Below are positions 3,779-64,000 of a DNA stretch of 64,000 nucleotides, one piece after another. This stretch comes from Microbotryum violaceum (lineage: Eukaryota). The stretch covers positions 2,371,591-2,435,590 of the forward strand of contig LN717261.1 in the NCBI GenBank assembly GCA_001244265.2, written 5' to 3'. The stretch's first letter is position 1. Each line of letters begins with the position of its first letter. The position numbers and the translations under genes were made by a program. Below the pieces are notes generated by a model. The model worked only from the letters and a program-made list of their open reading frames with translations, was not told the DNA's origin and made no database searches.

Positions 3779-8327
<4,549 letters not shown>

Positions 8328-8907: not shown

Positions 8908-16677
<7,770 letters not shown>

Positions 16678-32329: not shown

Positions 32330-35300
32330 CCGTACAGCTTTGTAGAATGGGCAGCACGTTGAGCTCACCCCACCACTACATCCTCCTGCGCAAAGGCGCG
32401 CAAAGGCGAGCGCGCAGGCCTCGAATTGCGCTCGAACCCCTCAAGCCCCACGTTTTTGCAGGGCAAGGTGCAGCTACCTCCCCTCTCCGGCACAATCCCG
32501 AGTGTCGACAGCTACGTGAAGGCTCGGATAGCGGTCAGTTGCTCCGTCCAACAACCGTCGTCTGCAGTAGACCCACATGCTGAACTGTGCAAGAATCTTC
32601 CCACGCACACAGAAGCTATTGCATTGCGCGAGAACGCCCGGTCGTACAACAACGCGTTGTCGTTGACTCTGCTCGCTGCTCACTTTGACCAGACTCGACT
32701 GGGCATTCTAGGACCCCGCGTGTTTCGCGTGCTTGATCGGCTTTACTCCTCGACTCGGCGTCCAGATCCCTGTCGTCAATCAACGCTCCAGCCTTTGCTC
32801 AAACGTAGCTGATTGACCCAGCCGCCACCAACACTCAACTTGGACTCAACGGCGCAGGCAGTCGCATACAAAGGCCTACTTTGACCAAGCTCGAGTCCGC
32901 GTACCGGAAACCGCTTTGTGAAGGAGTTTGCATCAGCCAAAGCTTGCGCAGGCTGGGGATACGGCCAAAGAGTGGGTCCTGCGCCTCTGTCTACCACCAG
33001 GCCGAGACCGACGCACCCACAACCTTCCTCTGCCGAGCACGGAAACGACGATGCTTATCTGCGATTCCGACACCAACACGGGAGATTGTGGACCGCAAGA
33101 ACTTATTGTCCAGGTGCGCAGTCATCAATGTCCCAATGGTCGACCCAAGTACCAAGTCATCAGCTCGCTCCATCCGTCTGCAATGCCTCTCCGGTACCCA
33201 ACACTCTTCGCCGCAGAGGAAAATAGCTCCCACCTCAACACTCCTCTTTGCGGGTTCCACCAAGCCGGGCCGCCCATTGCCAGAAACCGAGAGCAGATCG
33301 ACAATGGTGTCCAATTGCGCGAGGGACTTCCGGTCTCGGTCTGGATGACGAACAAGGAGGATGAAGACCGCAAGGAAGGGGACAAAGAGGATGGTGATGA
33401 AAGGCACAAGATCGCTCTCGAGCCTCACTGGCAACCTAGCTGACAGGTGCAAGTTATATGGATTGCAACTAGCTTCTGGTGTCAGCCCAATGGGGAGGGA
33501 ACTGAAGAAGCTAGGTGCGCGCGATCTCTATTTCTAATACCTGTGGCCCGTAGTAAGGCGCACGCCTTACACTCTCCCCGCCTTGAAACAAATCCCCTCC
33601 GGTCAAAAATCCTACTCCTCATTCCGACGCTCCCACCTATCCAATGCCTCCGTATCCTCCAGTGCCTCGGCAGGCTCCCATGAATTGCTGTCTGACGGCC
33701 ACGAGAGCCACGAGACGAGGTATTGCTGCTTGCCAGCACGGATCCTCTCGTCGACAATGTCTTCAATGATGTACTCCGGCTCGCCACCTACATCCACTGG
33801 GCCCAGTCTCACAGGTTCACGGTTGGGGAACAGGGCTGTGTCGTTCTTGCGGTAGGTCTTGAGCTTACCTGTGTGAAAGAATAGTACCGCTGCATCATCC
33901 CCGTTCAGTTGCAGGGTGTAGGACGAGATTTCCGGTCGGGCCTTGACAATGCAACAGTGACCGTCGAAGCGGTCCATGAGCTTGGCTGTGTGGCGCTTGC
34001 GGGTGTGGAGCCATTTTCGGCGATCACTTGAGTCGAGAAGAACAAGATCCCCAACAGCCCAAGAGGGCTCATCCTGGCGCTCCTTGTTGGACTGTGCTGC
34101 CTGCTGAACCGTGGAAATGGTGAACTGGTCCCGGACGTCTTCACAGGCTTGGAATCGAAGGGCAAGCAACTCCTCAACGGACGGCAAGTCATCATTACTG
34201 TCGACGCGGGCAAGCGGGGCGAGGGAGGGCGTGTAGCCAAGCACAAGCTCGAAGGGGGTTTTCCCGGTAGCGACATTGAGAGACAAGTTGATGGCATACT
34301 CACAGACAGCAAGGCACTCCGCCCAGTTGGATTGCTCCTTGTTGACGAGCGCTCGAAGAATCTGGAAGGCAGTCTTGTTCGTTTTCTCGCTGCAACCGTC
34401 CGTCTCCGGGTGAAACGCTGAAGAGAGCTGGAGCTTGATATTCAGGCGCTTGTGCAGGGCAGTCCAGAACTTGCTTGTGAACAGCTTGTCCCGGTCCGAG
34501 ACAATGCTTTGAGGGAGGCCAAAAAGGCAGTGCCATCCTTCATGGAAGCGCGCGGCAACCTCCGCTGCGGTGTCAGCTTTGCGGGCAGGGAGCAAACGGA
34601 CGTATCCCGACAGGCGGTCGGTGATTGTCAACATGCGGTCAAAGCCTTTGTTGGCGGGCAGCGGTCCGACAAAATCGATGGCAATGTTGGCCATGGGTCG
34701 CGTCGGGACAGGAAGCGAGTGGAGTTTGCCAGCGATGCAAGTGGTACGAGCCTTGGTCCGCTGACAAGAATCACATTGTTGGACGTAGTGCTTGACGTCC
34801 CGGGACATGTTGGGCCAGAAGTATGCCTGCTGAATGGTTCGGTACGTTTTCATATCACCTAGATGCCCCTGCGCATCATGAGCATTGTGAAGGATGGACT
34901 CACGGAGCGGGGCTAGTGATGGAATGATAAGCCAGCCCCGTAAATACAGCAATGCATCAACAATCTTGAAGTCCGATGTGACCGAGCCAATGTTAGACAT
35001 GGCTTGCTGGCAGAATGGGTCGGTCTCGTACGCGTCGAGGATCTGCTGCTTGACAGCATCCAAAAGCTTGACATGGGAGACAGCGGCCACTAGGGTGGGC
35101 AGTGGGTCGGTGAAAGAGTATCAACTCATGGCGTCGGCTACAATGTTGTCCTCGCCGGGCAGGTATCGAAGGTTGTAATCAAATTTGGCCAGGGTGTCCA
35201 GCCAACGGGCTTGTCGGCAAGAGAGAACGGTGCGCTGGGTCTGGAAGTGCTCGAGTGTGGAGTGATCAGTGAGGATGTGGAAGTGGCCGCCAAGCAAGTC

Positions 35301-38300
35301 AATGCGCCATTCCTTGAGTGCTTCGACAATGGCAAGGAGTTCCTGCTCGTGTGTGGGGTAGTTGCGTTCAGCGGGTATGTATTGCCTGGACCAGTACGCA
35401 ATGGGGCGCACCACCTTCCACTCCTGACCCTGGAGGAGGACACCACCAATTCCCTGATTGCTTGCATCAGTCATCACCCAGAACGGAGCAGCATTGGCAG
35501 AGTGGTCGGGCGGCCGAAGGCAGTCAAGTGAGGTGACAATGGCCTTGATGGCTTTGAAGTGGCGGCCCTCGTTGGGTGTCCAGAGCGTGGCAATAGATGA
35601 GAGTCCTTGGCGCATCAAGGGAGTCAGTGCAGCGGTGTGCTCAGCAAGGCCAGGGATGAACTTGCGAAGATACTGCACCAGCCCAAGGAAACCCTTGAGT
35701 TCCTTGACCATCTTGGGTAGTGACCAGTCTTCAATGCGCTGGATCTTCTTGGGGTCCCCATGCACCCCGGCGTGGTTGATGATGTGGCCAAGGAACGAGC
35801 ACTCCGCAGTGGCAAGGTTGGTTTTGGTTGACGAGCAATAGAGTTTGGCACAGCGCAGCGCATCCAGGACTTGGCAAACACGGGCCTCGTGCTCCTCCAG
35901 TGTATCCGCAAAGATGGTGAAGTCGTCGAGGTAGACAAAGCAGATGGTGCCAAGCAGGCCTTGGAGCGCCTCATTGACACGTTGTTGGTGGGTGGCAGGG
36001 GCATTGCAGAGGCCCATGGGCATGACGGTCCATTCGTACAAACCCCAAGGTGTGGACACGGCCGTCTTATGGATGTTGTCCTCCGCCATCTTGGTCTGAA
36101 AGAAGGAGTTGGTCATGTCAATCTTGGCCCAGAATTGCGCATTGGAGCACGTCGAGAGAATGTTGTCCGGCAAGGGCAGAGGCGTGCGGTCTTTGATGGT
36201 GTGCTTGTTGAGCTTGCGGTAGTCGTTCACCCAGCGCGGGGCGATTGTGGGATCCACGTCGCAGCCCTTCTTTGGGATGATGAACGAGGGTGATGAGTAT
36301 GCCGACTGAGAGGGGCGGAGGCGACCGGCCGTGAGATGTTCCTGTAGTAGTAAGTACCATGCCTCGCAATACTTCTTTGGGAGGGGGTATCCTCAAAGGT
36401 TGACAACAGTGGACGGAGTGTCAAGCTCAATATGGTGTTGCACCGGGGATTGGTACGAGTGTACAACCGGGATATCCGCAGGAAAACGGTCGGCAAACTC
36501 CGCTCGGAGGCAATGGTCAAGCGCGGCAAGGCGGAGCTGCTCCTTGTCGTCAGAAACCGGAGCAATTGCGGCAACCCGCGCGGCAGCACACGGCTGGGAC
36601 GACAGCGCCAGCAGGTCTATAGCGTGTATGGGGTTGGCTTTGCAGGTGAGGTGTGGCTGAGGGAAGAGGCCGAGCTCCATCTTGTGCCAATAGATGAAGT
36701 TGCCTCCCAAGATGATTGCAAGGTCCTTCCCAAGGGGCGCTACCTCGGCGTACGTTGGTCCTGCGGCCCAGAGCCCATTGGCCAGCTCGAGCGAGATGTG
36801 GTCGGCGTTGAGAGTGCGGCAGCAATAGCATCCGTGGTTCTGGTCCAGGTACGCGCGCTCGTCGACGGTGAGTCGGGCAACGGGGCGGGGGCCACCCGTG
36901 ATTGGGGAATGGCCGGTAGCAGCTGTCGCAACGTGGGGTGCAGCCGAGGCTGCAGCGGGTTGCGAGTACGTGGGGCGCTGTTGTAGCGCACTGACCTGGG
37001 TCGCAATGGCTTGGCGTTGCTGCGCAATGACACTCCATTCCTCGCGACCAATCCTCTCAAAGACTTGGTAATCGAACTCAAGAGGTTGGTCCGTGTGTGC
37101 ATCACTAAAAACCTCAGCGGCCTCCGGACTGGTAGGGACCACCGGAGCGTCGAGGGCAAGCTTCTTGAGCGAGAGGTCCGACCAGCCAGCCAGCGATGAG
37201 ACCATGTGGGTGCGGAGGATCCGGCAGAGTTCCGGATTGGTGCCCAGGAGAACCAGCTTGGCCACTTCTTGGTCGGAGACGACCTGGAAGCCAATCTCCA
37301 TTTGCAGTGAGCGCATCTGATCGGAGAATTCCTGAAAGGTGTTGATGTTGTGGCCGGGGGCTTGGCGTAGACGGTGGAGTTCGGCGAGCTGGGTCCAGAC
37401 GAAGTCCGCTGGTACAGCCCGGCGAATCAGTTCTGACTTGAACTGAGCGTATGGCTTTGCAAGGTGCTTGCTCAGGCCCTGGGTGAACCAGGTCTTGAGC
37501 GCAAAGACCTGCAACCCCATACCGGCCCCCTCAATCTTATCGTAGTCGCTTGTGATGAGTGTACGGGCAATGCGACGGTTGTAGAAGTCCAGGGGCATGA
37601 AGTATTTGCGCAAGGCCTCCATCGAGGTGCTATGGAGTTGGGGAGGGTCATTGGGTTTATACGTGGGGCTGTGGCTGGGGGCGGTGGGCGTGGGCATGGT
37701 GCGCGGGGACGGTGCGATGTCGGCTGGTGAGGCGTGCGAAGGCGGTGCGTGTGTGGGCGCTGTGCTGGGGCTGGGAGTCTGCGTGCTATGATTGTGGGAT
37801 TGGCTTGCCTCGACAGATCTGGGCTAGTCGATGGGTTCGATGGTTCGACTACGGCCGGGCCTGATGAACGTAGGCCGTATCGTCGGGGTACCAATGAACT
37901 TGACGTTGTCAAAAAAAAAGTGAAAGGCACGAGATCGCTCTCGAGCCTCACTGGCGACCTAGCTGACAGGTGCAAGTTATATGGATTGCAACTAGCTTCT
38001 GGTGTCAGCCCGATGTACGAGAGTGCTGAGATATGGAACACCAGTACTCACCTAGCTTCTGGTGTCAGCCCGATGGGGAGGGAACTGAAGAAGCTAGGTG
38101 CGCGCGATCTCTATTTCTAATACCTGTGGCCCGTAGTAAGGTGCGCGCCTTACAGGTGATGGCGAACGTACGCGTCTTCGGCTCTTTCTCTGATGTTCCA
38201 TTCTGTTTAAGGCGCAAGCACAGACTGACATTGAACTTTTGAACACCTAGGACGAAGGTCAAGTAAAGGGGTCGAGGTGGCAAGTCTCGCGTTCACAATT

Positions 38301-42021: not shown

Positions 42022-44754
42022 TCACTCGTATTTGGCCGTCCCGCCTTTACCGTTCGCACCCGCCGGCCCGCTACTCCCACCCATGAGAAAGGCACCCCCT
42101 CTCCTCCCCAGGCATTGTCGCAGGAACCACCATCCGGCCAACCACGATGAGATGATGAAGAAAATGAGGGCGAAAGGATGGGAGGAGAAGTACGACTTGA
42201 ATGACGAGTCGGTAAGAAGCGCGAGGCGCTAATCGAAATGAATCAGTCGCCGGGGCAGGAGGGGAACGTTTGAACTCGACAGAGTTCAGGCTCACATGTG
42301 CTAGTCGATCAAAGAATGATCTCGAGCTCAGAGGTTTCAACTGGTTGGTCAGAATCCCTCGCTCGATCGTCTCGTACACGGTGTCCGACGTGATGGGCTC
42401 GGACGAGAGATCGCGGTTCCAATAGGCCAGTTCCTGTGTGAGAAGGGGCAGGTACAATGCCCATCAATAACTCGACGCGAAAATCCAAGAAAAGGCTGGA
42501 CAACCTACTTTTGGGTCCGAGACGACGATTCCCGGTCGCTTCCCCCAGTTGACCGAGTACATCCCCTTCAGCCACCCCATCCACCGGTCCGCATCGACCC
42601 AAGCCCAGACCACCTCCCTCGCCAACTTGTCCCCTTTACTCCTCCGCTCTGCCCACCCCTTGGCCAAGGCTTCGAACGCGGTCTTTTGATCCTCATAATC
42701 CTTGCCCATCTGTGATTTGGAAAACAAACCCAAGACAACAAGAGGGACCTCGTCACCCATCGCGGGCAGGACATCATGGATCGTCGCTGAGTTCAGTTCG
42801 ACCAGAGCGGGCAACTTGGCCCATCGCATCCAGTTCGAGATGTTCTCAATCCTCGCTTCGCGGTTCGCCAGCCCTGATGTAGATGCAGAGGGGAAGACAT
42901 GTCTCGAGCTCGGTTGAAGGTGTTGGCCCTTCAAGACGAGGAAGACGGCGTCCTGTTGGACCGAGTACAGGGAGAAGAGGTCCGGCGACGTCGAGGTGTA
43001 GAATGAGAGTTCGCCTTGCAGGTTCCTTGCTGCGGTCGTAGTGATCTTGAGATCGTCCTTGGAGAGCGAAGGCGAATACAGGAACAGCATGACCACGGGT
43101 TCGGCGGCGACGACGCGCTTGAGTTCGTACTCATTGGCCAAAGGCTTGACCTGGCTCAAGTTGACGACGCGAGTGACGAAGCGACGCATCGTTTCAACGT
43201 CACGAGGCCCGTTGTATTCGACCTTTTGCCCCTGATGGTAGAGCATCAATGTCGGGTACGATTGGACCTTCTCCGCCGCGCAGGTCTTGCTGGTCGATTT
43301 CTGGTCGCAGTCCATCTCGTACACAGCGACTCTGCCCTTGAGTTGCTCGGCCAGGTCGACCCAGCGCGTTTGCAGCGCTTTGCAATGCCCACACCACGGC
43401 GCATAGAACTTGACAAACGAGGGGGGTGCATCGTCAGCGTTGAGAGCGTTGATCTGCGTCGGCTCGAGGATGTGGACCTGACCATCGGGCAAGGGGTGGT
43501 TGTTGCGCTTCTCGTCGATTTGCTGATGTGGCTGGGCGACGAACAAGGGCGGCGAGTCGGAATTGGCGGAGCCTTTGCCCAGTCGAGCAATCCCGCCTTT
43601 GGGCGCTCGACCGTCGGCGGTCTTGTCGGACTCAGAACCCACGGCGGCGTCCAGCAACTCCTTGCTTATCTTGTCCGCTTTCAACAACGGTGGTGAAACG
43701 ACGACGGGTGCAGCCTTCTTGGCCCCTTCAAGGATGACTTCAAGCGCCGATGGAGAAGCCTTCTCCTCTTGTGCATCTTCGTTATTCAGATGCAACTTGG
43801 CCTCCCGCGTCGATCCCATGTGTTTCGCAGCGCTCGTGTCTGATTCCCCCGTCTTTCCCTTGATCGCCGCCGCCAGCCTGTCTGTCTTGACCTGACCCTG
43901 AGGCCCATTGTCGAGCGCATCTGATTGCGTGCCGTTCTCTTCGGCACTTTCCTCGTCCTCTTCTTCCTCGCCCTCGGCTTGATCCTTCTTGGGAGCCGTT
44001 TCGACCTTGACCTCGGGTGGCGCTACGGCCTTCTTGGCTTCAAGCGCTTTGGCCTGCTTATTCTTAAGCATTTGCCTGTCGATGTACTGATCGAGGTCAA
44101 AGACGGCACGCTTGCCGGAATACTCTTCGACAAAGACGCCGTGGTGGTAGAGGAATATGGAGGGGTAGTATTTGACATTGTTGAGGTGGCAGAGGTCGCC
44201 GTTGGCGGCGCAGTCTACTTGAGCAAAGTAGAAGTTTTGCGAAGTCGTGGGCACACGCTTGAGGTCGTACACTGTGTATGGGGCGTCGTGGGCCGGTTGG
44301 GATGGTAGAGGAGGTTTGGACGGTGAGCTACCGGTTCCTTCAGGTGGGAGGGTTGATTGATAGAGCGCGTCAGGGTCGACTTACGTTCTTTCCACTTGGG
44401 AGCAAATGACCGGCAGTGGTGGCAATATGGTCTGTCACGCCGAATAGCAAACGTCAGTGCCCCTCTTGCACGTCGTCTCTTACCCGAAAGGAACATGACG
44501 TACGAATAGTGCTCGACCAGCCTGTGCGATGAGGACGAACAGAGGGCAGTCAGTCCACGTGTTTCACCTTCACTTTGATGTCCATGATCCTGCGCATGCC
44601 TCTATACTTACCAGGTGCCGTTGTTGACGGTGTTCCACGTCTCGGCAGTCAAAGACTCGCCGGCCATTTCCATGGGCGTGATGGGTGCGGCCCCAGAGAG
44701 CAGGACCAACGCCGTCATCACCAGCTGCGACAAAGGCAAGCCTATCCGTGTCAT
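42022..44754 (-). CDS. Membrane-anchored ER protein disulfide isomerase-like thioredoxin-domain protein (Eps1/TXNDC5-like), multi-exon
   Basis: Signal peptide MTRIGLPLSQLVMTALVLLSGAAP; PYCHHC and APWCGHC thioredoxin motifs; main exon 42464-44272; C-terminal TM segment HPFALIFFIISSWLAGWWFL; ends ...AKYE*; GT-AG introns. Confidence 0.9.
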
Positions 44755-51347: not shown

Positions 51348-54300
51348 TCTATATAAATCCTTAAAACTTAAAGAATAAAAAACATCGTTGAGACAAACCA
51401 CGTGGTGTGACGTCATAGGCAGCTCTCGGTCCAGCGCGTCCCAGTTAGCTAGCGCTGTTTCAGCATCGGCGAGACCGCTTCGTCTACCTTCGCCGAGGTT
51501 CCATTTCCCATCAAAGCGGCCTGGCATATGACTCTCTGCTTCCCAGACGACCTGTTTTGCGTGCTTGCCACGTCGTAGTGTAGTCCCTTCAACCATCCAG
51601 TTCTGCTACTGCCGAAGAGTCATCTGCAGGCTTTCACATCCCGTCTCCTGTACAACAATCTTCACAGAGAGCAGCAGGGCATCAGAGACGTCGGCAGCTG
51701 CTCGCGTTGCTCCTCCGCGCAATCCGACTCCTCCCGACTCCCGCTCTAATCGCACAGACATCGCCGCCAGCAACCTCGAACAATCGCCGAAGCTCAGCGA
51801 CAACGATGCCTTCGCCAGAAGCAGCAGCGCGAAACCGATCAACACGACATCGCGCAAACTGGTTTGTCAATTCAACCTGCACCGGCAGCAGGCAGCCTCA
51901 GTGTTGCACGGCAAGTGCAATGGGCCCGCAGTTCTTCATCTCCAAGCCTGACATTCGTTCGTCCACTTGAAGCGGTTCCAGACCTCGGGTAGCGTCGGCC
52001 AGTGCGCCAATTCCGCCGTTAGGGGCCCGCCAGCGTGTCATGGGGCTTCACTCCACGGCGTTCCGCGACATTCTATGAGCCCGGTTTAAGCTGAGACACA
52101 GGCTCCTCCGTCTTTCTCCCTCCTGCTCTTCACACCTTGCCCATCGCATCTCATCCCATCGCCACCTCGAACTTGCGACATCCGAAGCGGTCGTTGTGGA
52201 AGCTCTGCAACGAATACGGGATCAAGAAATGGCTGCCACATGCAGCATAGCTACGAATTCGAGTACGTAACTTCATAAACTGTGCTCTTGGTGTGGGATT
52301 GTTCAGAAGCTAATGGAACCCTACCAAGCAGAAATCTCCTTCAACGCGTCCTCTTTTGAATGTCAACCCTCGAGATGTTCCTTCACCGTCAGCTGGTGAT
52401 ACTGCATGTGTGAGTCATCCCTTGACATGGCTGTGTAGTCTTAGATATGACGGACAAACTGATACAAAAAAACAGACATTGGACGTCAGTGATACAGCGG
52501 AAGGATTGACTTCGTACGGTTGACAATCCGGGTTCATGGGACACAAAATGTGAGTCTTCACTGCCATTGCTACAGATGGACAACAGCAAGAATACTGATA
52601 GTTCCATAGGACGAATCACGCAAAAAAAACAGGTTCCGTGAATTGCGGCTCACCATCCGTGGCAGATCCTCAACGACTCGGTTCGGTGGGGTGACCATCA
52701 CGTTGGCAGGTGTGTGCAAAACTTTCAAAAGCAAAACGCAGGGCAGCATGACTAATGACCGGTTGGACTGTAACATCACAAGGGATCCGAAGCAACGCCT
52801 TCCCGTTATTCTCACAAATTGTCAATTTCGTTGATGCTCCGGGAGGGACAGGCAAAACGTTCTTGGAAGAAATGGTCCTTGCTCGGATTGTGAGAGGGAA
52901 CATACGCTCTTGCCGTTGCATCATCGGGTATTGCTGCACTGCTACTGCCAAAAGGCAGAACGGCACAATCGTGGTTCAAGATCCCGATCATCGTCTTCGA
53001 CGACTTTACGTGCAACGTTCCGAAACAGGCACAGCTCGCCGAGCTTTTTGGGATGTGCGACTTGATCGACCGGGACGAGGCACCGATGAAGCACCGTCGA
53101 TGTTTCCAGCTGGTGGACAGGATGTTGACATGTGCAATTGTCAACGGCTCGGGTTGGTGGACTGACCGTCGTGTTGGCAGGTGTGTGCCAATCTTTCAAC
53201 AGCACAGCGCAGGCCAGCATGACTAACTGACCGGTTGAACTGCAACATCACAGGGGACAAGTTTTCTCAAGATGCCTTCCCGCAATTTCCAGGTCATCAC
53301 CTGCACAAATCGTCTACGCTTGCATCATGGAATGCTGACTTCTGGGGGAAGTTGAGGGTGCTGCATGACTTCGTACGGTTGAGAATCCGGGTCATTGGAA
53401 CACTGAATGTGAGTCTTCACTGCCATTGCTACAGATGAACAACAGCAAGAATACTGATAGTCGAATCACGCAAGAAAGCAGGCTCTGATTGCGTGAATTG
53501 CGGCCCACCATCCCATGGCAGATTCTCAACGGCTCGGTTTGGCGGAGTGACCGTCGTGTTGGCAGGTATGTGCCAATCTTTCAAAAGCAAGGCGCAGGGC
53601 AGCATGACTCACTGACCGGTTGGACTGTGACATCACAGAGGATCCGAAGCAATGCCTTCCCGTTATTCTCAAGTCATTGCCTACACAAATTGTCGACGCT
53701 TGCATCATGAATGTTGACTTCTGCGGGGATCTCTCTGTAAGTGGTAGTCCTTGCCTGACCTTTAGACCCTATACTAGGCTAACAATGGCACAGTGCGAGC
53801 GCAGACAAACATGCCTCTTCTGGCCGCTGCAAACCGCATGACCGAAACGGAACAGGCAAAGGCACAGGGCTTTGCAGGTTGGCTTTTCGGAGTTCGGAGT
53901 TGGAGACGGGTCGGCGAACGAAACAGAAGACTATCGCGCTCCCACGTGAGCTTCTCCTGCCGGCGACCACGAGGAACAGATCCGGGTTGATCAGACACGT
54001 TTATCCCGTCCCGCGCTCAAACTGGACAATATATCAATAGGCGAAAAAGTCGAATACTTCCGAGAGCGAGCAAAACTGACGCCCAAAAATTTGCAGGTGG
54101 ATCACATCAACGACATGGTGCTCGACCTGCTGCCGAGTGACGCTCAAACCTTCTACAGCGCGAATTTGGACACCTTTGTTGCGGTGGATGTCGCCGCACA
54201 GTCACCGATTGCACTGCGTCCACTGCCCGAGGATCAACTTCGTCCAATGGATCCACCGCCTGTGAACGCTGCGATCTCTCGAAGGTCTCAAGGTCAGCAA

Positions 54301-54409
54301 AGATTGCGCATAGATGGAAGCAGTATAGAACCGTAGCCATCTGCAATAAAGTAACAGAACTGCTGATTCTCAATGTGAGGTGGCGCGCGGAGCGCCCCGC
54401 CAAACCTAG
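51348..54409 (+). mobile_element. Degenerate Helitron with PIF1-helicase fragments and internal duplications
   Basis: A|TC start at ~51348; FVDAPGGTGKTF, FKIPI, DEAPMKHR and VDHINDMVL motifs; duplicated blocks at 52540-52810 and 53140-53720; 3' hairpin ggcgcgcggagcgcc then CTAG|T at 54406-54410. Confidence 0.85.
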
Positions 54410-54465
54410 TCTTACAAGAACAACTACATCAATCCCGCATTTTGTCCCGTCATCCTCGCTATCCC

Positions 54466-55148
54466 CGCACGGTTTCGATGTAGTAGAGGAGGTTTTCGCT
54501 GTTGCCCCCGCAGGACGCTGGTGTATAGAGTGCGAGGAACGGCTGTATGAGTTGTGGGGATGTTGGCGACGCCTTGGTATAGTCGTGATTCGTTCGATCA
54601 GAGGTTCAATCACAGGCTCGACGCATGATTTTCGTCTCGGGAGTAGCTCGGCACCCGCACGGTTTCGATGTAGTACAGGAGGTTTTCGCTGTTGCCCTCG
54701 AAGGACGCTGGTGTATCGAGTGGTGGAGGAGGGGCTGAAGGCGGTACATTACAACAGTACCGCAGGAGGATGTGCGGTAGGTGGTTTCCCCCCGGGGGAA
54801 TCTTATGAACGACACTCCGAGGGGTGTCTTGAAGCGTCCCCCGGGGGAATTTCATGAACGACACTCCGGGGGGAGACTTGTGAGCTTCCCCCGGGGGTAT
54901 TTGCTCAATGCTCCCCCCGGGGGACGCCTCAAGACACCCCTCGGAGTGTCGTTCATGAGATTCCCCCCGGGGGGATCCTCAGGGTACGCGCGGAGTTGTA
55001 CAATGTCTTATCCCATTACAGCACGCTGGTGCATCAGGTGCATGAGTGGTGAGGATGATGGTGGCGACGCCTTGGTGTAGCGGTGATTTGTTCGGTCGAT
55101 CGTTCGGTCAGAGGCTCGATCACAGGTTCGACGCATGATTTTCGTCTC
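54466..55148. repeat. Imperfect direct repeats flanking the dyad array
   Basis: cacggtttcgatgtag...gacgctggtgtat at ~54468 and ~54658; ggcgacgccttggt...gcatgattttcgtctc at ~54565-54638 and ~55063-55148. Confidence 0.85.
54787..54975. repeat. Dyad-symmetric array of CCCCCGGGGG motifs (candidate origin or protein-binding array)
   Basis: Arms 54787-54848 and 54912-54975 are near-perfect reverse complements; the motif recurs every ~25 bp. Confidence 0.9.
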
Positions 55149-55215
55149 CATTTCCGCTACCCAGTCGTCATTCAATCGACAGTTCACGGAAATGAAGTTC
55201 AAGAATCAATATCAT

Positions 55216-58200
55216 TTATTGCAGGCGCGGTAGCAGTTCATCGACATCGCCTTCACCTTCGCCAGCCTCATCCTCCACGTCCTCTACGTCCTCTACGTCC
55301 ATGGGCATGACATTCGAGTGTGACCACTCGTCCAAGATTGCCTCAGCCCTCTCGACGGCACAGTCCAGATCGTAGCTCCTTAGCATATGCCAGTCCTCGA
55401 TCAGGGAATCTTGGCGTGTGGCTAGCAACGCAAGAACTGTGCAGTTCAGATAATCGCTAGACCAAGTGGCGCCGCTGCCGTCCGCGGAGCGCCGCAGCGG
55501 CACACCGCAACCCAGGTGATAAACCCTCTTGATAAACTTGTACGCTGTGTTATATACGCCCTTATCCCCCGCGACGATTTTCTTCTGGTTCGTCGCATTC
55601 CACAGACGATATTCAGCACTTTGTGGATTCGCGCAACGCAGACGGAACTCCATGATCCTGCGTTCATCCTCGGAGCCCTCGGACAAGTCTATCGTGTCGC
55701 CAGGCGCGATAATCCCGAGATCGCGATCGCCATCGATGGCGAAATCAGTGTAAAGGAATTTTTGCATCGCTCGTAAGAGCTCTGACCCAGCCAAGGCAGA
55801 GGCGTGCCTTGAAACGCCCCCAATCGCTTTGCTGCGCCACTTCCAGGGGTCCTTTTTGAGCCCCGTCTCAAAAAGCACCAGTGAAAGCCAACGGTCGAAC
55901 GCGAAAGCCCCCAGCCATGGGGCGTGGTGAGCGGTGCATTCATGTTGCAAGCGAACAGCCACGTCACGTAAGATGTCGTGCTTGAAACGATTGCTGCGTA
56001 TGAGGGCGTCCATCAACATGTCGGCCTTGATGGAGGCCTCAAACAGGACCTGTGATGCCACCTCCGCGTGCAGCTCCCCATCTGCCACGGCCCGTAAATC
56101 GGCAAGCGGATCTTCCAGATGCCAATTTGCCACGCAGATGGAGCGATTCCTGACGTATTTATTGAGCACAGCCAGAAGATTCGCCCGCTCGGCCTCCGAC
56201 GACGTGATGGGCACTTCGGCACCGCCAATCTTCACCAGTACGTGGCCATTGTACCGTTCTTGCCACAACCAAGCGTGTCGATTCCGGGAATCAGCAAATT
56301 CCGCGGCGGCCTCGGCTTGGATTTTCAAACGAAAGCTTCCCGCACCACCCAGGCCCAAGCCCATGCCAGCGTCCGTGCGAGCGGTACTGACAAGTGAGAA
56401 GTACATTTGGGAGAGCCGTTCTTTGGACGCCAGATTTTCGTCGCCGCACCCCTTTTCGATGTAGGCGTATACGTAGGCATGCATTTCATCAGTGCGTGCC
56501 TGGTGTCGGAGTCGCTGAGTCATTTGATATTCAGCGTCATGTGCGATGATGCCCTTGTGCAGAAAATAGAATCCCGCTGTGTAGTGACAGTCGAGCGAAA
56601 GACCCGCCGAGAGCACAGGACTGGCGAACACAATATCGGCTCCGGACGTTTCCGCATTCGGATCCTTGATAAAACCTTGGACCCAGTCGTCTTGGGCGCA
56701 GGTATCTCGGGTCACGAGACGAATACCTGGGCGCTGCTCGGGCGTACAAAAGCCCTTGAACATGGCGTATAAGGAGGCTGCAAACGTTTTCTGGGTACAA
56801 AATACGAGCGTCGGGAACCTTGCTCGAGATCGGCGTGGATCCCAATTTGATTTGTAGAAATGCTGAAGTTGGGCAAGAACGACGCCAAGATCATCGGACG
56901 AAGCCATTGGGTAAAGCCTTCGTGGTGTCATAATACAGGATCGTTGGACGAAGGAGCGGTCCTCTGCATCCACCATGCAAAGGTCGGAAGCCCAAGTGAC
57001 GACATCTTGAGACAGGTCGGACTGCAGCAGGATGACAAGCGATGCCGAGCGCATGATACCGCAAAGACGTTGATACACCTGGAAAACGCCAGTTAGTTAG
57101 CAGATTGGATTGCTGAACTACAGACATGCACTTGCACTCACCAAATGGTACCGCCTGTCCATGGTTGAATCGCCCAAACTCATCCTAATTGCATCCGCCT
57201 CGTCCAGAACGACAATGTCGTACGCCATATGCGTCGGTATTCGCGTAATCGAATGGATGCAGGTCGAGATCCGCGCTACATTGTGCTCGGTGAATGCCCC
57301 ATCCTCTTTATAGTTCGTCAGATTCCATTCCTGAGCCTGATACTTGGCAATGGACTCGCGGTAGGACATTGCGCATACAGTGGCGCGCAGCCTGTCGTTG
57401 AGGATACTGCGAATGAAGGTCGACTTTCCCAACCCTGTGGCGGCCGAAATTGCCAACAGACGAACGCCCGCAGCAACACTCAGGTCGGTCCGTCCGTGAG
57501 AATTGATACGCCACGTGGGGTCAGTGAACACGATGCGTTCATTTGGCAGAACTTCCATGGGGTCACGTTTGAAGGTAGTGGCGGCAAACAACGTCGATCG
57601 GCAACTGAAGCAATGGAGGGCTCGATCGCCCGCATCGGTTGGGAAAACTCGCGCACTCTGAGAGTAAGAAATTGCTGCATGGTCAGCATACCGCCGCGAG
57701 GTGTATGGAGAATTCGGAAAAGGCGCGTACAGGGTCTCCAATACCTCGGTGGCCCTACGGTGTGTCCTTGGATTCGCATCGCGGACAGTAAACCGTTGAC
57801 CCAAACGTGATCAGATTGAATTGTTTGGTGGTGGTACCGTCAGCAAGTACGATCGCCGCTGTGTCCTCGAGAATATGCGAATTCACCTCTGCATCAACTT
57901 CCCTTCTGCGAGCGCTGCGAGCCTGTACCTGGTTGCCTCGGTCCGTGTCCCTGCGACGTCTTGCACGTTCAGCAAGCCGTTCCGCAGTTGCGGAATCCAT
58001 TGCGCCGACATCAGCCCGCACCAGGATATTGCAGCCGGCATTGGCGACGTCAGTTGACCAAGGGTGTGCCGGGTGGAAGCTGATGGTGAATGGCTGGTGG
58101 GTCTCGTTCAAGATGATATCCATCCCTCCGACTGGACAAATGTTCGATACCATGTGGTGTACGTAGGGAAGACGTAGGGAAGACGTCCTTAAATCGAAAC

Positions 58201-59162
58201 CGCATATCGTTGTCACCGATGATTCGAGTCGCCTGATCTGGCATTAGTACAGGCCGGAGTGGTCTTCCTTGCCGCGCTTTGGAGTTGCCACCGAGTCGAT
58301 AGAGCTGATGTTGGCCGTAAGGAACAAGATCAAACACGTACGATCCCTTTCCTTGCCCTGTCAGCTGCAGAAATAGGAGCGATGGCGAAATGGCGATCAT
58401 CCGATCCGGTATGTTGTCTTTGATCATATCGGACAAGGATTGAATGCAAAATCCGCGAATTGCTGAAGCGAGCTCGAACGAGAGTGCCGCGGACGATGTA
58501 AGATGTGAGTCCATCCCGATTGGGAAGACAATGTGAAACGACAATTTCGAGGATGTGGAAGCACTAAGGACGGTGATTGGCCGTCCCGCGAGGTCGACGC
58601 CGAGACGCCGGCGAAGTGAGACACGAATCTTGTTCAGCAGGTCGGTAAGAACTCGTTCCGCGTAAAGTTCTTCGAACAGCGTGCCCGCGGTGGAGAGTAG
58701 AACTGCGATTATTCGCTGGCGCTGAAGTGGAAAAACAACGAAAACGAAAAGCAATGAATGAGATAACTCAGCACTCCTGACCTGCCAACGCAAAACCGCA
58801 AGGTCCGAGCTGACCACATCTTCAAGCTCAGCGCCAGGGAAATACGACGCTGCGTTACGCGTCAACAACGCCATTTTGGCTGGATTGTCAATTGAAGGAC
58901 GCTTAAATTCGACATCGATATAGTAGCAGCTTGGCAGCGAAGCGTCGATGATTTCATAGTAGCAATTCTCGTTTTGGGCTGAGTCGCTTGCCCACAAGCG
59001 TTGATATAGTTCGCGTGGAGTGCCGACCACGTATTGCTTCACGCCCGGAACAGGCACTGTGCCTGGTGGCCAGTACAATTTGTCGCGTGCAAACACTCGA
59101 TGTCCTTTGTCTTTCGCAGACGCCAATGCTGGTTGTAACTTGGCATGAATGGCTAAAGGCAT
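55216..59162 (-). CDS. PrimPol-like AEP primase, Zn module and UL9/origin-binding-protein-like SF2 helicase fusion (~1270 aa; 2 introns, 2 frameshifts)
   Basis: AEP motifs CYYEII...YYIDVEF, KLSFHIV, FDLVPYGQHQLYRLGGNSK; CPRC...LHCFSC; helicase motifs AATGLGKST, SYRESIA, IHSITRI, YDIVVLDEA, LVFCTQK, SPVLSAGLSL, YQMTQRLR. Introns at 57079-57141 (gtgagt..gctaac..cag) and putatively 58722-58781. Confidence 0.85.
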
Positions 59163-59199
59163 TGGGTGATTGGGTGATGGCGTGGGTGACGCGGAGCGG

Positions 59200-59332
59200 A
59201 TCGGGGGGATTTCGCAGGGTATTTTATGTTTTCGCTTCGGCTGAGCCGAAACAGCGCACCCCCGGGGGACTTCGCACGGGGTTTTTTTTTCGCTTCGCTG
59301 GGCCAAAACAGCGCATCCCCGGGGGATCCCTC
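59200..59332. promoter_or_regulatory. Tandem ~57-bp repeats with CCCCGGGGG motifs in the divergent intergenic region
   Basis: Two units ggggga(t/c)ttcgca...ttttcgcttcg...aaacagcgca.cccc followed by gggggatccc; mirrored at ~62168-62300. Confidence 0.7.
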
Positions 59333-59479
59333 TCGTCCCCTCTTTCCCTCTTACCCCTCACTGCTCTGGGCATCACCCACAAACGCCTTACGACGGCCTT
59401 CTTTCAGACGTCGTGCATCTCTACCGTTGCGTCTGGTCTGGTCGATCCGAGTCGGCCCTCCCGCAACTCTCGCCGCACA

Positions 59480-60970
59480 ATGGCTCCTCGCGCCCAGGGG
59501 CCTCGCGCCCAGGAGCTGCCCCTGGAAGGCGATCTCGCATGGCTGGATGTCGACTCGCACCTGGTCCGCGCCCCCTCCGGCGAGTGGCGCATGCGGTGTC
59601 GATTGTGCATCGGTGATTACAAGCTGCCTGGGGGTACACGTCCCCAACGCCCCCACTGTAGCGAAGGTTCACGCCCTGGAAATGGTCCGAAACATCAAGA
59701 AACATTACCGGGACAAGCACAACTGTACCTTCAAGGCGTCGGACACTCGGTACAGGGGCAACGAGGTGGCGTTTCCCTTAATCGGTACCGACCCTGAAGT
59801 CCAAGCGGTAAGTCGTAAAATACTTCTATCAATATGATTTACGTCATTTGTGGACTTTGGCTCACGTTGTCTCAATATTCATTATCTGATTAGGGTTTTG
59901 GCAACCTGAAGAGGAGATACCGCAAGACTGTCAAGGCCAGACTCGACGCATTGGAGGCGCAGGTGAAGGCGAACCGTGCGACCCACGACGAGTGGGAGGC
60001 ACGAAAGGCGGATCGACTGGCGTGCGAGCCCGAAGATATCCTACGGGCGTGGGGTGAGGAAGATCCCCCTCAGGAGGACGAGGACTGGGACTATGCGACC
60101 CAGGGTGACCTCCGGAACCTCATGCCTCCGAACCGCCATGAGCTTTGGTACGCCCACAAGGGATATCAACGGCTGCCTCAGAGCCTTTTGACCCTTCTCA
60201 TCAGTTGGAGGGACGTTCTAATGGAAGGATACCTACGGGAGAAGGCACGGGAAGGTGGGGCGGACGCCACACTGTTGAGGGAGTGGAGGGTCCGCCTCCA
60301 GGACTATGACGACACCATCGCCGGACTGATACCCATCCCCGTCAACGTCGACCTGAAGCGTCACCAGTCGGAACTGATCAGCGAAGTCGTTCGACCGCTC
60401 TATGAACAACGGCGACGCCCCCTCCCTTCCGTCGACATGTTGCCCCAGACGTGCCGAAACGACATGGAGCGCAGCCTTGCTCGCGTCGAGAAGGCCTACA
60501 AGCCCTTAGACGGTGCGAAGCGGCGAGCCTACGATCGGTACTGGGATATGCTCGCCTCCGACCACAGCACGTTCCGACGATGGTTAGGGTTCCCAGCGAT
60601 TGGGTTGAAGAACTTTGTCCACAGTCGCGAACCCCCCAAGCCACTCAGCGATGCGGACGTCAAGGCCGAAAGGAAGAATGTCTTGGACGCGTGGATTGTC
60701 GAGTGTGCCAACAAGTGGTTGACAGAAAACGGAGGCCCGCTTCCACGGTATCTATCCTTTTCCTCCGCGGACAGTGTCAACCACTTGTTGGCACACTCGA
60801 CAATCCACGCGTCCAAGACATTCTTCCTTTCGGCCTTGACGTCCGCATCGCTGAGTGGCTTGGGGGGTTCGCGACTGTGGACAAAGTTCTTCAACCCAAT
60901 CGCTGGGAACCCTAACCATCGTCGGAACGTGCTGTGGTCGGAGGCGAGCATATCCCAGTACCGATCGTAG
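59480..60970 (+). CDS. BED-like C2H2 zinc-finger protein with an unknown helical C-terminus, truncated by the fold-back
   Basis: W...CRLC...NIKKHYRDKH; frameshift in the C-run at 59642; intron 59808-59893 (gtaagt..ctgat..tag) splices in frame to ORF 59951; the ORF runs through the palindrome centre. Confidence 0.65.
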
Positions 60971-62020
60971 GCTCGCCGCTTCGCACCGTCTAAGGGCTTG
61001 TAGGCCTTCTCGACGCGAGCAAGGCTGCGCTCCATGTCGTTTCGGCACGTCTGGGGCAACATGTCGACGGAAGGGAGGGGGCGTCGCCGTTGTTCATAGA
61101 GCGGTCGAACGACTTCGCTGATCAGTTCCGACTGGTGACGCTTCAGGTCGACGTTGACGGGGATGGGTATCAGTCCGGCGATGGTGTCGTCATAGTCCTG
61201 GAGGCGGACCCTCCACTCCCTCAACAGTGTGGCGTCCGCCCCACCTTCCCGTGCCTTCTCCCGTAGGTATCCTTCCATTAGAACGTCCCTCCAACTGATG
61301 AGAAGGGTCAAAAGGCTCTGAGGCAGCCGTTGATATCCCTTGTGGGCGTACCAAAGCTCATGGCGGTTCGGAGGCATGAGGTTCCGGAGGTCACCCTGGG
61401 TCGCATAGTCCCAGTCCTCGTCCTCCTGAGGGGGATCTTCCTCACCCCACGCCCGTAGGATATCTTCGGGCTCGCACGCCAGTCGATCCGCCTTTCGTGC
61501 CTCCCACTCGTCGTGGGTCGCACGGTTCGCCTTCACCTGCGCCTCCAATGCGTCGAGTCTGGCCTTGACAGTCTTGCGGTATCTCCTCTTCAGGTTGCCA
61601 AAACCCTAATCAGATAATGAATATTGAGACAACGTGAGCCAAAGTCCACAAATGACGTAAATCATATTGATAGAAGTATTTTACGACTTACCGCTTGGAC
61701 TTCAGGGTCGGTACCGATTAAGGGAAACGCCACCTCGTTGCCCCTGTACCGAGTGTCCGACGCCTTGAAGGTACAGTTGTGCTTGTCCCGGTAATGTTTC
61801 TTGATGTTTCGGACCATTTCCAGGGCGTGAACCTTCGCTACAGTGGGGGCGTTGGGGGACGTGTACCCCCAGGCAGCTTGTAATCACCGATGCACAATCG
61901 ACACCGCATGCGCCACTCGCCGGAGGGGGCGCGGACCAGGTGCGAGTCGACATCCAGCCATGCGAGATCGCCTTCCAGGGGCAGCTCCTGGGCGCGAGGC
62001 CCCTGGGCGCGAGGAGCCAT
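60529..62020 (-). CDS. Mirror copy of the BED-like zinc-finger gene
   Basis: Reverse complement of 59480-60724. Confidence 0.6.
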
Positions 62021-62337
62021 TGTGCGGCGAGAGTTGCGGGAGGGCCGACTCGGATCGACCAGACCAGACGCAACGGTAGAGATGCACGACGTCTGAAAGA
62101 AGGCCGTCGTAAGGCGTTTGTGGGTGATGCCCAGAGCAGTGAGGGGTAAGAGGGAAAGAGGGGACGAGAGGGATCCCCCGGGGATGCGCTGTTTTGGCCC
62201 AGCGAAGCGAAAAAAAAACCCCGTGCGAAGTCCCCCGGGGGTGCGCTGTTTCGGCTCAGCCGAAGCGAAAACATAAAATACCCTGCGAAATCCCCCCGAT
62301 CCGCTCCGCGTCACCCACGCCATCACCCAATCACCCA

Positions 62338-64000
62338 ATGCCTTTAGCCATTCATGCCAAGTTACAACCAGCATTGGCGTCTGCGAAAGACAAAGGACAT
62401 CGAGTGTTTGCACGCGACAAATTGTACTGGCCACCAGGCACAGTGCCTGTTCCGGGCGTGAAGCAATACGTGGTCGGCACTCCACGCGAACTATATCAAC
62501 GCTTGTGGGCAAGCGACTCAGCCCAAAACGAGAATTGCTACTATGAAATCATCGACGCTTCGCTGCCAAGCTGCTACTATATCGATGTCGAATTTAAGCG
62601 TCCTTCAATTGACAATCCAGCCAAAATGGCGTTGTTGACGCGTAACGCAGCGTCGTATTTCCCTGGCGCTGAGCTTGAAGATGTGGTCAGCTCGGACCTT
62701 GCGGTTTTGCGTTGGCAGGTCAGGAGTGCTGAGTTATCTCATTCATTGCTTTTCGTTTTCGTTGTTTTTCCACTTCAGCGCCAGCGAATAATCGCAGTTC
62801 TACTCTCCACCGCGGGCACGCTGTTCGAAGAACTTTACGCGGAACGAGTTCTTACCGACCTGCTGAACAAGATTCGTGTCTCACTTCGCCGGCGTCTCGG
62901 CGTCGACCTCGCGGGACGGCCAATCACCGTCCTTAGTGCTTCCACATCCTCGAAATTGTCGTTTCACATTGTCTTCCCAATCGGGATGGACTCACATCTT
63001 ACATCGTCCGCGGCACTCTCGTTCGAGCTCGCTTCAGCAATTCGCGGATTTTGCATTCAATCCTTGTCCGATATGATCAAAGACAACATACCGGATCGGA
63101 TGATCGCCATTTCGCCATCGCTCCTATTTCTGCAGCTGACAGGGCAAGGAAAGGGATCGTACGTGTTTGATCTTGTTCCTTACGGCCAACATCAGCTCTA
63201 TCGACTCGGTGGCAACTCCAAAGCGCGGCAAGGAAGACCACTCCGGCCTGTACTAATGCCAGATCAGGCGACTCGAATCATCGGTGACAACGATATGCGG
63301 TTTCGATTTAAGGACGTCTTCCCTACGTCTTCCCTACGTACACCACATGGTATCGAACATTTGTCCAGTCGGAGGGATGGATATCATCTTGAACGAGACC
63401 CACCAGCCATTCACCATCAGCTTCCACCCGGCACACCCTTGGTCAACTGACGTCGCCAATGCCGGCTGCAATATCCTGGTGCGGGCTGATGTCGGCGCAA
63501 TGGATTCCGCAACTGCGGAACGGCTTGCTGAACGTGCAAGACGTCGCAGGGACACGGACCGAGGCAACCAGGTACAGGCTCGCAGCGCTCGCAGAAGGGA
63601 AGTTGATGCAGAGGTGAATTCGCATATTCTCGAGGACACAGCGGCGATCGTACTTGCTGACGGTACCACCACCAAACAATTCAATCTGATCACGTTTGGG
63701 TCAACGGTTTACTGTCCGCGATGCGAATCCAAGGACACACCGTAGGGCCACCGAGGTATTGGAGACCCTGTACGCGCCTTTTCCGAATTCTCCATACACC
63801 TCGCGGCGGTATGCTGACCATGCAGCAATTTCTTACTCTCAGAGTGCGCGAGTTTTCCCAACCGATGCGGGCGATCGAGCCCTCCATTGCTTCAGTTGCC
63901 GATCGACGTTGTTTGCCGCCACTACCTTCAAACGTGACCCCATGGAAGTTCTGCCAAATGAACGCATCGTGTTCACTGACCCCACGTGGCGTATCAATTC
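62338..64000 (+). CDS. Mirror copy of the primase-helicase gene, running off the window
   Basis: ORFs 62194-63450 and 63284-63745 are identical to 58050-59306 and 57755-58216. Confidence 0.85.

What the first reader, a model, noticed from the sequence alone, without database searches (positions are those of the whole stretch)
57500..64000. Near-perfect palindrome of at least 6.5 kb with a 50-nt asymmetric loop
Seen: the arms appear identical except for one homopolymer base, and the loop 60725-60774 continues the ORF in frame on the plus strand. Established: such junctions arise from fold-back priming or breakage-fusion-bridge, origin-dependent inverted amplification, replicative dimers of hairpin-ended linear replicons, or chimeric reads. 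Inference: its position on a replication module suggests a product of the element's own replication, but a centre inside an ORF argues for a fold-back accident rather than a native telomere.
Basis: partly seen in the sequence, partly recalled or inferred. Interest (0 to 1): 0.72.

Follow-up and report, generated by a model that had tools for sequence, protein, structure and literature searches.

The report
Fold-back duplication of a fungal transposon
One strain of the anther-smut fungus Microbotryum has lost the right end of a rare 7-kb mobile element and replaced it with a mirror copy of the rest, making a large, very recent palindrome that looks like a real repair or replication accident of a known kind, not a sequencing artefact or a natural hairpin end.

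Summary
The palindrome is real in the sequence. Arms 57500-60724 and 60775-64000 differ only by one C in a C-run, the loop is 50 nt, and the window end cuts the right arm.

It sits on a ~7-kb element with inverted ends. The element encodes a PrimPol-type primase fused to a UL9/origin-binding-like helicase.

Short-read contigs of four public runs were laid on it:
- In 3 of 4 runs (X5, X6, X10) the element is intact. The sequence runs past 60724 into the reverse complement of 60743-60774, then about 300 nt absent from the window, then an inverted ~90% copy of the left end. So 32 of the 50 loop bases are the element's own next bases, and 18 nt (60725-60742) are unexplained filler.
- In X1, the best-matching run, the contig ends exactly at 60724. 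No right-end branch shows at 54463. The left end has the same depth as the arms.

I read this as a genuine, strain-specific fold-back duplication reaching the element's left terminus (predicted 54410-67089). It is not an adapter artefact and not a telomere dimer. The junction itself was not seen in raw reads. The scan noted other palindromes in this genome, on other pieces.

The parts
57500..60724 (+). Left arm as visible in the window (arm 1). By inference the arm starts at the element's left terminus, 54410.
   Evidence: X1 contigs 54411-54798 (depth 62.9) and 54963-60724 (depth 57.2) have like depth.
60775..64000 (-). Right arm (arm 2), the reverse complement of arm 1, cut by the window end. 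Predicted to run to about 67089.
   Evidence: The extent beyond 64000 is inferred, not seen.
60725..60742 (.). 18-nt filler at the junction (GAAAACGGAGGCCCGCTT). It is not the native continuation seen in X5, X6 and X10, and no template was found for it.
   Evidence: In one search the alignments of X5, X6 and X10 stop at 60743. Unique in the window. One 9-mer match in 54000-60718 against 1.13 expected.
60743..60774 (-). 32 nt of the loop that are the element's own next bases after 60724, kept in arm-2 orientation.
   Evidence: contigs of X5, X6 and X10 join 60724 to 60774 on the opposite strand, with 32 letters on the short side.
54410..54463 (+). Outermost 54 nt of the element, apparently shared by both native ends (terminal inverted repeat). 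Proposed site of the homology-guided switch.
   Evidence: contigs of X1, X6 and X10 leave the window sequence before 54410. X10 contigs match up to 54463 and then run on with other letters. X1 crosses 54463 without a break.
54464..55215 (+). Left subterminal non-coding region. It holds direct repeats (54464-54545/54654-54737 at 89%; 54544-54638/55039-55148 at 76%), an inverted repeat 54783-54978, and five CCCCCGGGGG sites. Candidate origin or protein-binding region.
55219..59195 (-). Primase-helicase gene: PrimPol-type AEP domain, zinc finger, UL9/origin-binding-like helicase. Annotated in a public strain as two models (MVLG_06887 partial, MVLG_07232). Complete in arm 1.
62305..64000 (+). Mirror copy of the primase-helicase gene, cut by the window end (primase frame 62143-63450).
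   Evidence: plus the mirror arithmetic.
59894..60724 (+). Open frame of unknown status (277 codons up to the junction) cut by the palindrome centre. Its mirror lies at 60775-61605 on the minus strand, so the two stubs converge on the loop.
   Evidence: No relatives found.
59265..59320 (.). 56-nt second copy of an imperfect tandem unit in the divergent-promoter region. Present in the window and X1, absent in X5, X6 and X10.
   Evidence: (joint 59264>59321).
54382..54409 (+). End of a high-copy repeat with a Helitron-like 3' end (stem GGCGC/GCGCC, then ..CTAG) that abuts the element terminus. Proposed native right flank of the element.
   Evidence: Depth of hundreds to thousands in 52000-54400. 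The Helitron assignment itself is from recalled end features, not tested.

Best explanation
This is a genuine, very recent, strain-specific inverted (fold-back) duplication inside a chromosomal copy of a ~6.96-kb element with inverted ends.

In the intact form, read in window orientation, the order is: flank A (the repeat ending ..CTAG at 54409), right end, body, left end, flank B. In this strain the right-most ~645 nt of the element are gone. In their place lies a second, inverted copy of the left 6,315 nt (54410-60724). The locus now reads A, X, 18-nt filler, 32 native nt, reverse-complement of X, and by inference reverse-complement of flank B. That is a predicted 12.7-kb palindrome with the element's left terminus at both outer ends.

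Most likely origin (inferred): a break or stalled fork near the right end. The end carrying the 54-nt terminal repeat paired with the identical but inverted repeat at the other end of the element. It copied inward to the break, and the two ends were then joined without homology, leaving the 18-nt filler.

Consequences (inferred):
- two copies of the primase-helicase gene;
- no right end;
- two convergent stubs of the plus-strand frame, which would give hairpin RNA if transcribed. The fungus has expressed RNAi genes.
For: Shown:
- The palindrome is in the sequence.
- In 3 of 4 laid runs (X5, X6, X10) contigs pass 60724 into the reverse complement of 60743-60774. They then hold about 300 nt absent from the window, then an inverted ~90% copy of 54570-54716 or 54486-54533. 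This is the ancestral intact state.
- X1, the best holder (0.95 of the sampled words), carries the window's 56-nt unit. It differs from the window by 1 letter and 4 gaps over 54963-60724.
- X1's 5769-nt contig ends exactly at 60724. That is what a 31-mer graph does where two continuations exist.
- X1's contig 54411-54798 crosses 54463 with 0 mismatches, while X10 branches there into right-end sequence. So X1 shows no native right end.
- X1's left-end contig (depth 62.9) and arm contig (57.2) have like depth. So the duplication reaches the terminus.
- X1 still carries the flank-B letters that X6 and X10 have before 54410, and those letters are not in the window. So the mirror stops at the element edge (all).
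- CTAG lies directly next to the terminus in flank A and 3 nt from it in flank B. This is compatible with a 4-bp target duplication around one insertion site.
- The loop is not sequencing adapter. The adapter-like stretch lies within the 32 native nt, and its score is reached by 3 of 1278 100-nt windows.
Against: - All read evidence is from assembled contigs, not raw reads.
- No X1 contig that bridges the 18-nt filler was shown. The depth of the last bin in X1 (37.1) implies that only about 32-62 further letters of 60725-60850 are covered.
- One search lists only part of its rows: 2196 pieces and 217 loose ends are not shown.
- No single-copy depth baseline was available, so a 2:1 depth for the arms is not shown.
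- The outer end of arm 2 lies outside the window.
- Only 1 of the 4 laid runs shows the derived pattern. It may be the strain the window was assembled from, so it is independent of the long-read library but not of the strain.
- A perfect palindrome with a 50-nt spacer is expected to be unstable. Zero substitutions between the arms fits an artefact as well as a very recent event.
- Palindromic long reads are a known source of assembly errors (PMC6218980, passages).
- That flank A is the native right flank rests on parsimony and on the CTAG.
Confidence: 0.58

Rival explanations
1. Assembly artefact: one or a few palindromic long reads (missed hairpin adapter, or an in-vitro snap-back molecule) were used to extend the contig. 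Arm 2 would then not exist in the genome.
For: A perfect multi-kb palindrome with a loop of about adapter length (50 against 45 nt). The only arm difference is a homopolymer length, typical of long-read consensus. Missed-adapter reads with this structure are described (PMC6218980, passages). Part of the loop resembles the SMRTbell adapter in 16 of 18 positions. The right arm runs off the window, so a contig end nearby is not excluded.
Against: The adapter-like stretch lies inside the 32 nt that contigs of three other runs carry next to the arm, so it is native. In X1's contigs, which I take to be a short-read assembly, three things fit a real structure and none is expected if X1 held only the intact element: the contig stops exactly at 60724, there is no right-end branch at 54463, and the left end and arms have equal depth.
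Confidence: 0.14
2. Real, but made during the element's own activity. Either the primase-helicase-driven replication of an excised or replicating copy turned back on the nascent strand (a snap-back defective copy), or repair synthesis after excision switched templates (abortive gap repair).
For: The element encodes its own primase-helicase. It has candidate binding sites: 7 of 7 CCCCCGGGGG sites of the window lie inside it, against 0.11 expected. The duplication ends at the element terminus, which suggests end recognition. Filler DNA at junctions is known from abortive gap repair of plant transposons (recalled).
Against: Nothing shows that the element replicates or excises. No transposase or integrase was recognised. 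The copy is chromosomal and keeps flank B at the same place as intact copies. The boundary at the terminus is equally explained by homology between the inverted ends.
Confidence: 0.2
3. Replicative head-to-head dimer of a linear replicon with hairpin ends. The centre would be the telomere-resolution site.
For: Inverted dimer shape and a self-encoded replication protein.
Against: The centre lies about 645 nt inside the intact element, within an open frame. Intact copies in 3 of 4 runs read straight through it to an ordinary inverted-repeat end. Arm 1 is joined to chromosomal repeats.
Confidence: 0.02

Closest known systems
Fold-back (inverted) duplications made by break repair or replication template switching, as described for yeast palindromic amplification and human fold-back inversions (recalled; for fungi see the bioRxiv preprint 10.1101/2025.01.14.632981, passages)
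   Same: Two inverted copies joined through a short asymmetric spacer that is native sequence on one side, a junction without homology, and loss of the sequence beyond the break.
   Different: Here the outer boundary coincides with the terminus of a mobile element, and the switch is proposed to use its 54-nt inverted ends. There is no sign of a terminal, chromosome-scale palindrome or of breakage-fusion-bridge. An 18-nt filler is present.
Mu killer (Muk) of maize, an inverted duplication of a partly deleted MuDR element that makes hairpin RNA (recalled; also named as closest known by earlier notes e1-7164812 and e1-7164966 for other palindromes of this genome)
   Same: An inverted duplication of one end plus the inner part of an autonomous element with inverted ends. 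Geometry that would give a long perfect hairpin RNA. The host has an expressed RNAi machinery (PMC4469406, passages).
   Different: No transcript or small-RNA evidence here. The element family is unrelated. Both full copies of the main gene are kept.
Palindromic long reads from a missed SMRTbell adapter or from amplification chimeras (PMC6218980, passages)
   Same: The arm-loop-arm shape with a loop of tens of bases.
   Different: The loop is not adapter, and an independent set of contigs (X1) shows the break and the loss of the native right end.
For the carrier element: AEP primases fused to UL9-like superfamily 2 helicases in bacterial and phage mobile elements (All3500 family; PMC5862659, passage)
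   Same: A primase domain followed by a helicase whose nearest named family is the herpesvirus origin-binding protein. PHROG replication families match at E 2.4e-14 and 2.1e-09, and the Atlas neighbours are cyanobacterial and phage clusters.
   Different: The host is a basidiomycete fungus. The primase domain is closest to human PrimPol. The gene has introns and sits in a ~7-kb unit with inverted ends.

Membership tests
Long-read assembly artefact (missed SMRTbell adapter) | The loop is the 45-nt adapter, placed symmetrically between the arms. | tested here: not met
   Best local match is 16 of 18 positions (score 25, reached by 3 of 1278 windows). It lies in the 32 nt that other runs hold as native sequence. 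The remaining 27 adapter bases are absent.
Long-read assembly artefact (any chimeric read) | The junction is absent from independent sequencing of the same genotype. | tested here: inconclusive
   X1's contigs break exactly at 60724 and lack the right-end branch, which argues against an artefact. No contig or raw read across the 18-nt filler was seen.
Fold-back inverted duplication (real rearrangement) | An ancestral, non-duplicated arrangement exists, and the spacer is native sequence on one side. | tested here: met
   3 of 4 runs carry the intact element. 32 of the 50 loop bases are its next bases.
Fold-back inverted duplication (real rearrangement) | The arms are at twice the single-copy depth. 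| not testable with these tools
   Only contig mean depths were available, and there was no single-copy baseline in the laid stretch.
Hairpin-telomere replicon dimer | The palindrome centre coincides with the end of the unit genome. | tested here: not met
   The intact element runs about 645 nt beyond the centre.
Muk-like hairpin-RNA silencer locus | An inverted duplication of part of an autonomous element, including one terminus. | tested here: met
Muk-like hairpin-RNA silencer locus | Read-through transcript, small RNAs and silencing of intact copies. | not tested
   No RNA run held the stretch: 0 of the 20 holders are on record as RNA.
AEP primase / PrimPol (carrier gene) | AEP fold with the three catalytic motifs. 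| tested here: met
   A profile of 12 sequences hits human PrimPol 5l2x/7jk1 at E 4.5e-08. The Foldseek top 10 are all human PrimPol, E 4.7e-05 to 1.8e-04, from a model with pLDDT 61.5. Motifs YYIDVEF, SFHIV and DLVPY..LYRLGGNSK are read; their assignment is recalled.
Helitron (left flank) | 3' hairpin followed by CTRR and insertion before T. | tested here: inconclusive
   Stem GGCGC/GCGCC and ..CTAG|T at 54382-54410. No Rep/helicase frame or 5' end was examined, and the end rules are recalled.

The most novel reading that the evidence does not exclude
The carrier is an undescribed kind of eukaryotic mobile element that copies itself with its own PrimPol-UL9-like primase-helicase from iteron-like CCCCCGGGGG sites near its inverted ends. 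On this reading the palindrome is a snap-back by-product of that replication, a chromosomal 'defective copy' that records the element's replication mode.
Probability: 0.12. Interest if true: 0.8.

Novelty: new member of a known kind. Interest (0 to 1): 0.42.

Why it matters
If real, this is a clean before-and-after pair. Intact copies in sister strains and a zero-divergence 12.7-kb palindrome in one strain let the two junctions of a fold-back duplication be read directly. One junction appears guided by the element's own inverted ends, the other is homology-free with an 18-nt filler. The locus is also a natural candidate for a transposon-derived hairpin-RNA trigger in a fungus with active RNAi.

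The larger prize may be the carrier. It is a rare fungal element built around a primase-helicase of a type known from phage and plasmid replicons. I found no description of it in the two literature searches made.

Tried and rejected
1. Loop as SMRTbell adapter, my first guess. The adapter sequence was taken from PMC5218489 (passages). The match scores 25 and ranks among the top 3 of 1278 windows, but it lies in native sequence. Rejected.

2. Template for the 18-nt filler. It is unique in the window. One 9-mer match in 54000-60718 against 1.13 expected. The unseen native right end could still hold it.

3. Native right end elsewhere in the window: none. In metagenome contigs: 0 matches to a 45-nt pattern. 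No relative of the helicase there either: 23 pattern matches, none confirmed.

4. Relatives of the plus-strand frame 59894-60724: none in the word-indexed protein search at 152-485 aa, none in Pfam or PHROGs, no usable Atlas hit. Its status as a gene stays open. Longer and shorter lengths were not searched.

5. Test of 'flank A is the native right flank' through a public short-read assembly. The thioredoxin-domain gene of flank A (42464-44380, MVLG_06987) lies on a 27,646-nt record. The primase lies on a 35,749-nt record and the helicase on a 2,768-nt record. There is no linkage either way, so this is inconclusive.

6. Whole-genome look-up: no genome is held for this window, so neither the contig end nor the mirror beyond 64000 could be seen.

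7. Earlier notes of the scan: nothing near or like this stretch.

8. PDB sequence searches of the three minus-strand frames singly: 0 hits each. Only the profile worked.

9. The AcademH paper (PMC7165386) is not held. A link to AcademH helicase transposons was considered from recall and passages of PMC10799480 and was not pursued. No DDE domain was seen.

10. Depth arithmetic on the last bin cannot separate a 110-nt loop contig at reduced depth from a 62-nt piece at half depth.
Full report
**Observation.** The window ends in a near-perfect palindrome.
- The repeat finder reports 57500-59654/61846-64000 (2155 nt) and 59642-60724/60775-61857 (1083 nt), both 100% complementary, with 50 nt between the inner ends.
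- The two pairs are offset by one base. Arm 1 has C4 and arm 2 has C5 at 59641/61858.
- BLAST gives 99.969% over 3226 columns.
- The right arm is cut by the window end.
- The frame 59894-60970 crosses the loop without a stop.

**Setting.** The window is fungal and rich in transposons.
- It holds Gypsy- and Copia-type polyproteins, an endonuclease frame and a thioredoxin-domain gene.
- Earlier notes of the scan name the genome as the anther smut Microbotryum.
- Two proteins of the region are identical to models of M. lychnidis-dioicae p1A1 Lamole.
- No whole genome is held for this window, so nothing beyond base 64000 could be read.

**The carrier element.** From 54410 rightwards lies a unit that occurs once in the window, apart from its mirror.
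- Its main gene runs on the minus strand from about 59195 to 55219.
- The 3' part is MVLG_07232, 759 aa with one intron.
  - It has Walker A and DEAD-type motifs.
  - It matches PHROG replication families 4913 (E 2.4e-14) and 3712, 'replication origin binding' (E 2.1e-09).
  - Its Atlas neighbours carry the herpes origin-binding-protein family in 13-15% of members.
- The 5' part is MVLG_06887. It has 15 relatives at E <= 0.001 among 1.84 billion representatives.
  - One is a 1120-aa fused form on a 7.5-kb record. Another is a Cryptococcus wingfieldii protein.
  - A profile of 12 of these sequences hits human PrimPol at E 4.5e-08.
  - A model with mean pLDDT 61.5 has human PrimPol as its ten best Foldseek matches, followed by poxvirus D5/E5 primase domains.
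- So the gene encodes a primase-polymerase, a zinc finger and a UL9-like helicase. This architecture is described for bacterial and phage mobile elements (PMC5862659, passage).
- I found no paper on such a fungal element in two searches.
- The non-coding left 800 nt hold direct repeats and an inverted repeat. All 7 CCCCCGGGGG sites of the window lie in the element, against 0.11 expected.

**What other genomes show.** Twenty public runs hold most of 54400-60800. Contigs of four of them, from four studies, were laid on 52000-60850.
- In X5, X6 and X10 a contig runs through 60724.
  - It continues on the opposite strand from 60774 down to 60743 (32 letters).
  - It then holds about 300 letters that are not in the window.
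  - It then holds a piece about 90% like 54570-54716 (X5, X6) or ending at 54533 (X10), in inverted orientation relative to the left end.
- The intact element therefore has inverted ends and extends about 645 nt beyond the palindrome centre, for a total near 6.96 kb.
- It follows that the centre is not an element end. It also follows that 32 of the 50 loop bases are simply the element's next bases, kept on the arm-2 side.
- The remaining 18 nt (60725-60742) are in none of these three runs. They have no other copy in the window and no visible template in the element.

**X1 behaves differently.** X1 is the best holder (0.95 of the sampled words). It shares the window's 56-nt tandem unit, which X5, X6 and X10 lack. 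It differs from the window by 1 letter and 4 gaps over 5.76 kb. In X1 (all):
1. The 5769-nt contig ends exactly at 60724, the last base of arm 1. In a 31-mer assembly this marks a place with two continuations.
2. The contig 54411-54798 crosses 54463 without a mismatch. In X10, contigs leave the window sequence at 54463 for right-end sequence. So X1 shows no native right end.
3. The left-end contig (depth 62.9) and the arm contig (57.2) have like depth. So whatever is duplicated includes the left terminus.
4. A contig carries, before 54410, the same flank letters as in X6 and X10. Those letters are absent from the window.

Together these fit one structure: flank A, X (54410-60724), loop, reverse complement of X, reverse complement of flank B. 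None of them is expected if X1 held only the intact element. I take this as independent support that the palindrome exists in DNA and that it ends at the element's edge.

**Limits of the read evidence.**
- These are contigs, not reads.
- Most rows are not shown: 2196 pieces and 217 loose ends.
- No contig across the 18-nt filler was listed.
- There is no single-copy depth baseline.
- X1 may be the strain from which the window was assembled.

**Artefact hypothesis.** My first reading was a missed hairpin adapter, because the loop is close to adapter length and missed-adapter reads are palindromic (PMC6218980, passages).
- The adapter sequence printed in PMC5218489 aligns to the loop at 16 of 18 positions. 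That score is reached by 3 of 1278 windows.
- However, the matching bases lie within the 32 native nt, and the rest of the adapter is missing.
- With the X1 pattern added, I put an artefact at about 0.14.

**Mechanism (inferred).** The simplest history needs two junctions.
- Flank A ends ..CTAG directly at the terminus. Flank B has CTAG three bases from it.
- If A and B are the two sides of one insertion site, the intact locus in window orientation is A, right end, body, left end, B.
- The derived locus then differs only between the shared 54-nt terminal repeat and the point 32 nt past the centre.
- A break or stalled fork near the right end would leave an end carrying the terminal repeat.
- That end can pair with the identical, inverted repeat at the far end of the element and copy inward up to the break.
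- Joining of the two ends without homology, after loss of 32 nt on one side and gain of 18 nt, gives exactly the observed asymmetry.
- Rivals are template switching during the element's own replication or during gap repair after excision. Nothing here speaks for element activity, and nothing excludes it.

**Consequences (inferred).**
- The primase-helicase gene is duplicated.
- The right end is lost.
- The two stubs of the plus-strand frame converge on the loop. Read-through transcription would give a perfect hairpin RNA.
- The species has expressed Dicer, Argonaute and RdRP genes (PMC4469406, passages).
- This resembles maize Mu killer (recalled), which earlier notes named for other palindromes of this genome. 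No RNA data were available: 0 of the 20 holding runs are on record as RNA.

**Verdict.** The 'fold-back accident, not a telomere' reading is supported. The link to the element's own replication is untested. This is a new member of a known kind of rearrangement. Its main value is as a dated before-and-after example, and as a pointer to an apparently undescribed primase-helicase element in basidiomycetes.

Noticed in passing
window 54410-60774 (mirror to 64000): The carrier looks like an undescribed fungal mobile element of about 7 kb. It has inverted ends and one large gene for a PrimPol-type primase, a zinc finger and a UL9/origin-binding-like helicase, and no recognisable transposase. Only 15 relatives of the primase part were found among 1.84 billion representatives, including a Cryptococcus wingfieldii protein and a 1120-aa fused form on a 7.5-kb record. 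No paper was found.
   Followed up: partly
window 54789-54973, 59259-59268, 62232-62241: CCCCCGGGGG occurs 7 times in the window, all inside the element, against 0.11 expected. Five sites are clustered in an inverted-repeat block near the left end and one lies in the divergent-promoter region of each arm. They are candidate binding sites for the element's protein.
   Followed up: partly
window 59265-59320: A 56-nt second copy of an imperfect tandem unit is present in the window and in run X1 but absent in X5, X6 and X10. It serves as a marker that separates two haplotypes of the element.
   Followed up: partly
window 54382-54410: A high-copy repeat ends here with a short GC stem and ..CTAG directly against the element's terminal T, which is Helitron-like. 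The other flank seen in runs X1, X6 and X10 also has CTAG, 3 nt from the terminus. This is a possible 4-bp target duplication.
   Followed up: partly
window 60750-60766: Native element sequence resembles the start of the SMRTbell adapter in 16 of 18 positions. This is a chance likeness that could mislead adapter screens.
   Followed up: yes
window 55219-59195, compared with public models: In the public short-read assembly of strain p1A1 Lamole the one gene is split into two models on different records: MVLG_07232 on 2,768 nt and MVLG_06887 (partial) on 35,749 nt. The fused relative P0008 shows they are one protein.
   Followed up: partly
window 56325 and 56362: Run X6 carries two changes in the helicase that alter the protein (K to Q, M to I), so the element varies among strains.
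   Followed up: no
window 3779-8327, 11443-14613, 19796-21385, 33612-37823, 42464-44380: The rest of the window holds two Gypsy-type and one Copia-type polyprotein frames, an endonuclease/exonuclease/phosphatase-domain frame (a domain also found in LINE elements) and a thioredoxin-domain gene (MVLG_06987). Its M. saponariae orthologue is on a record labelled Chr7.
   Followed up: no
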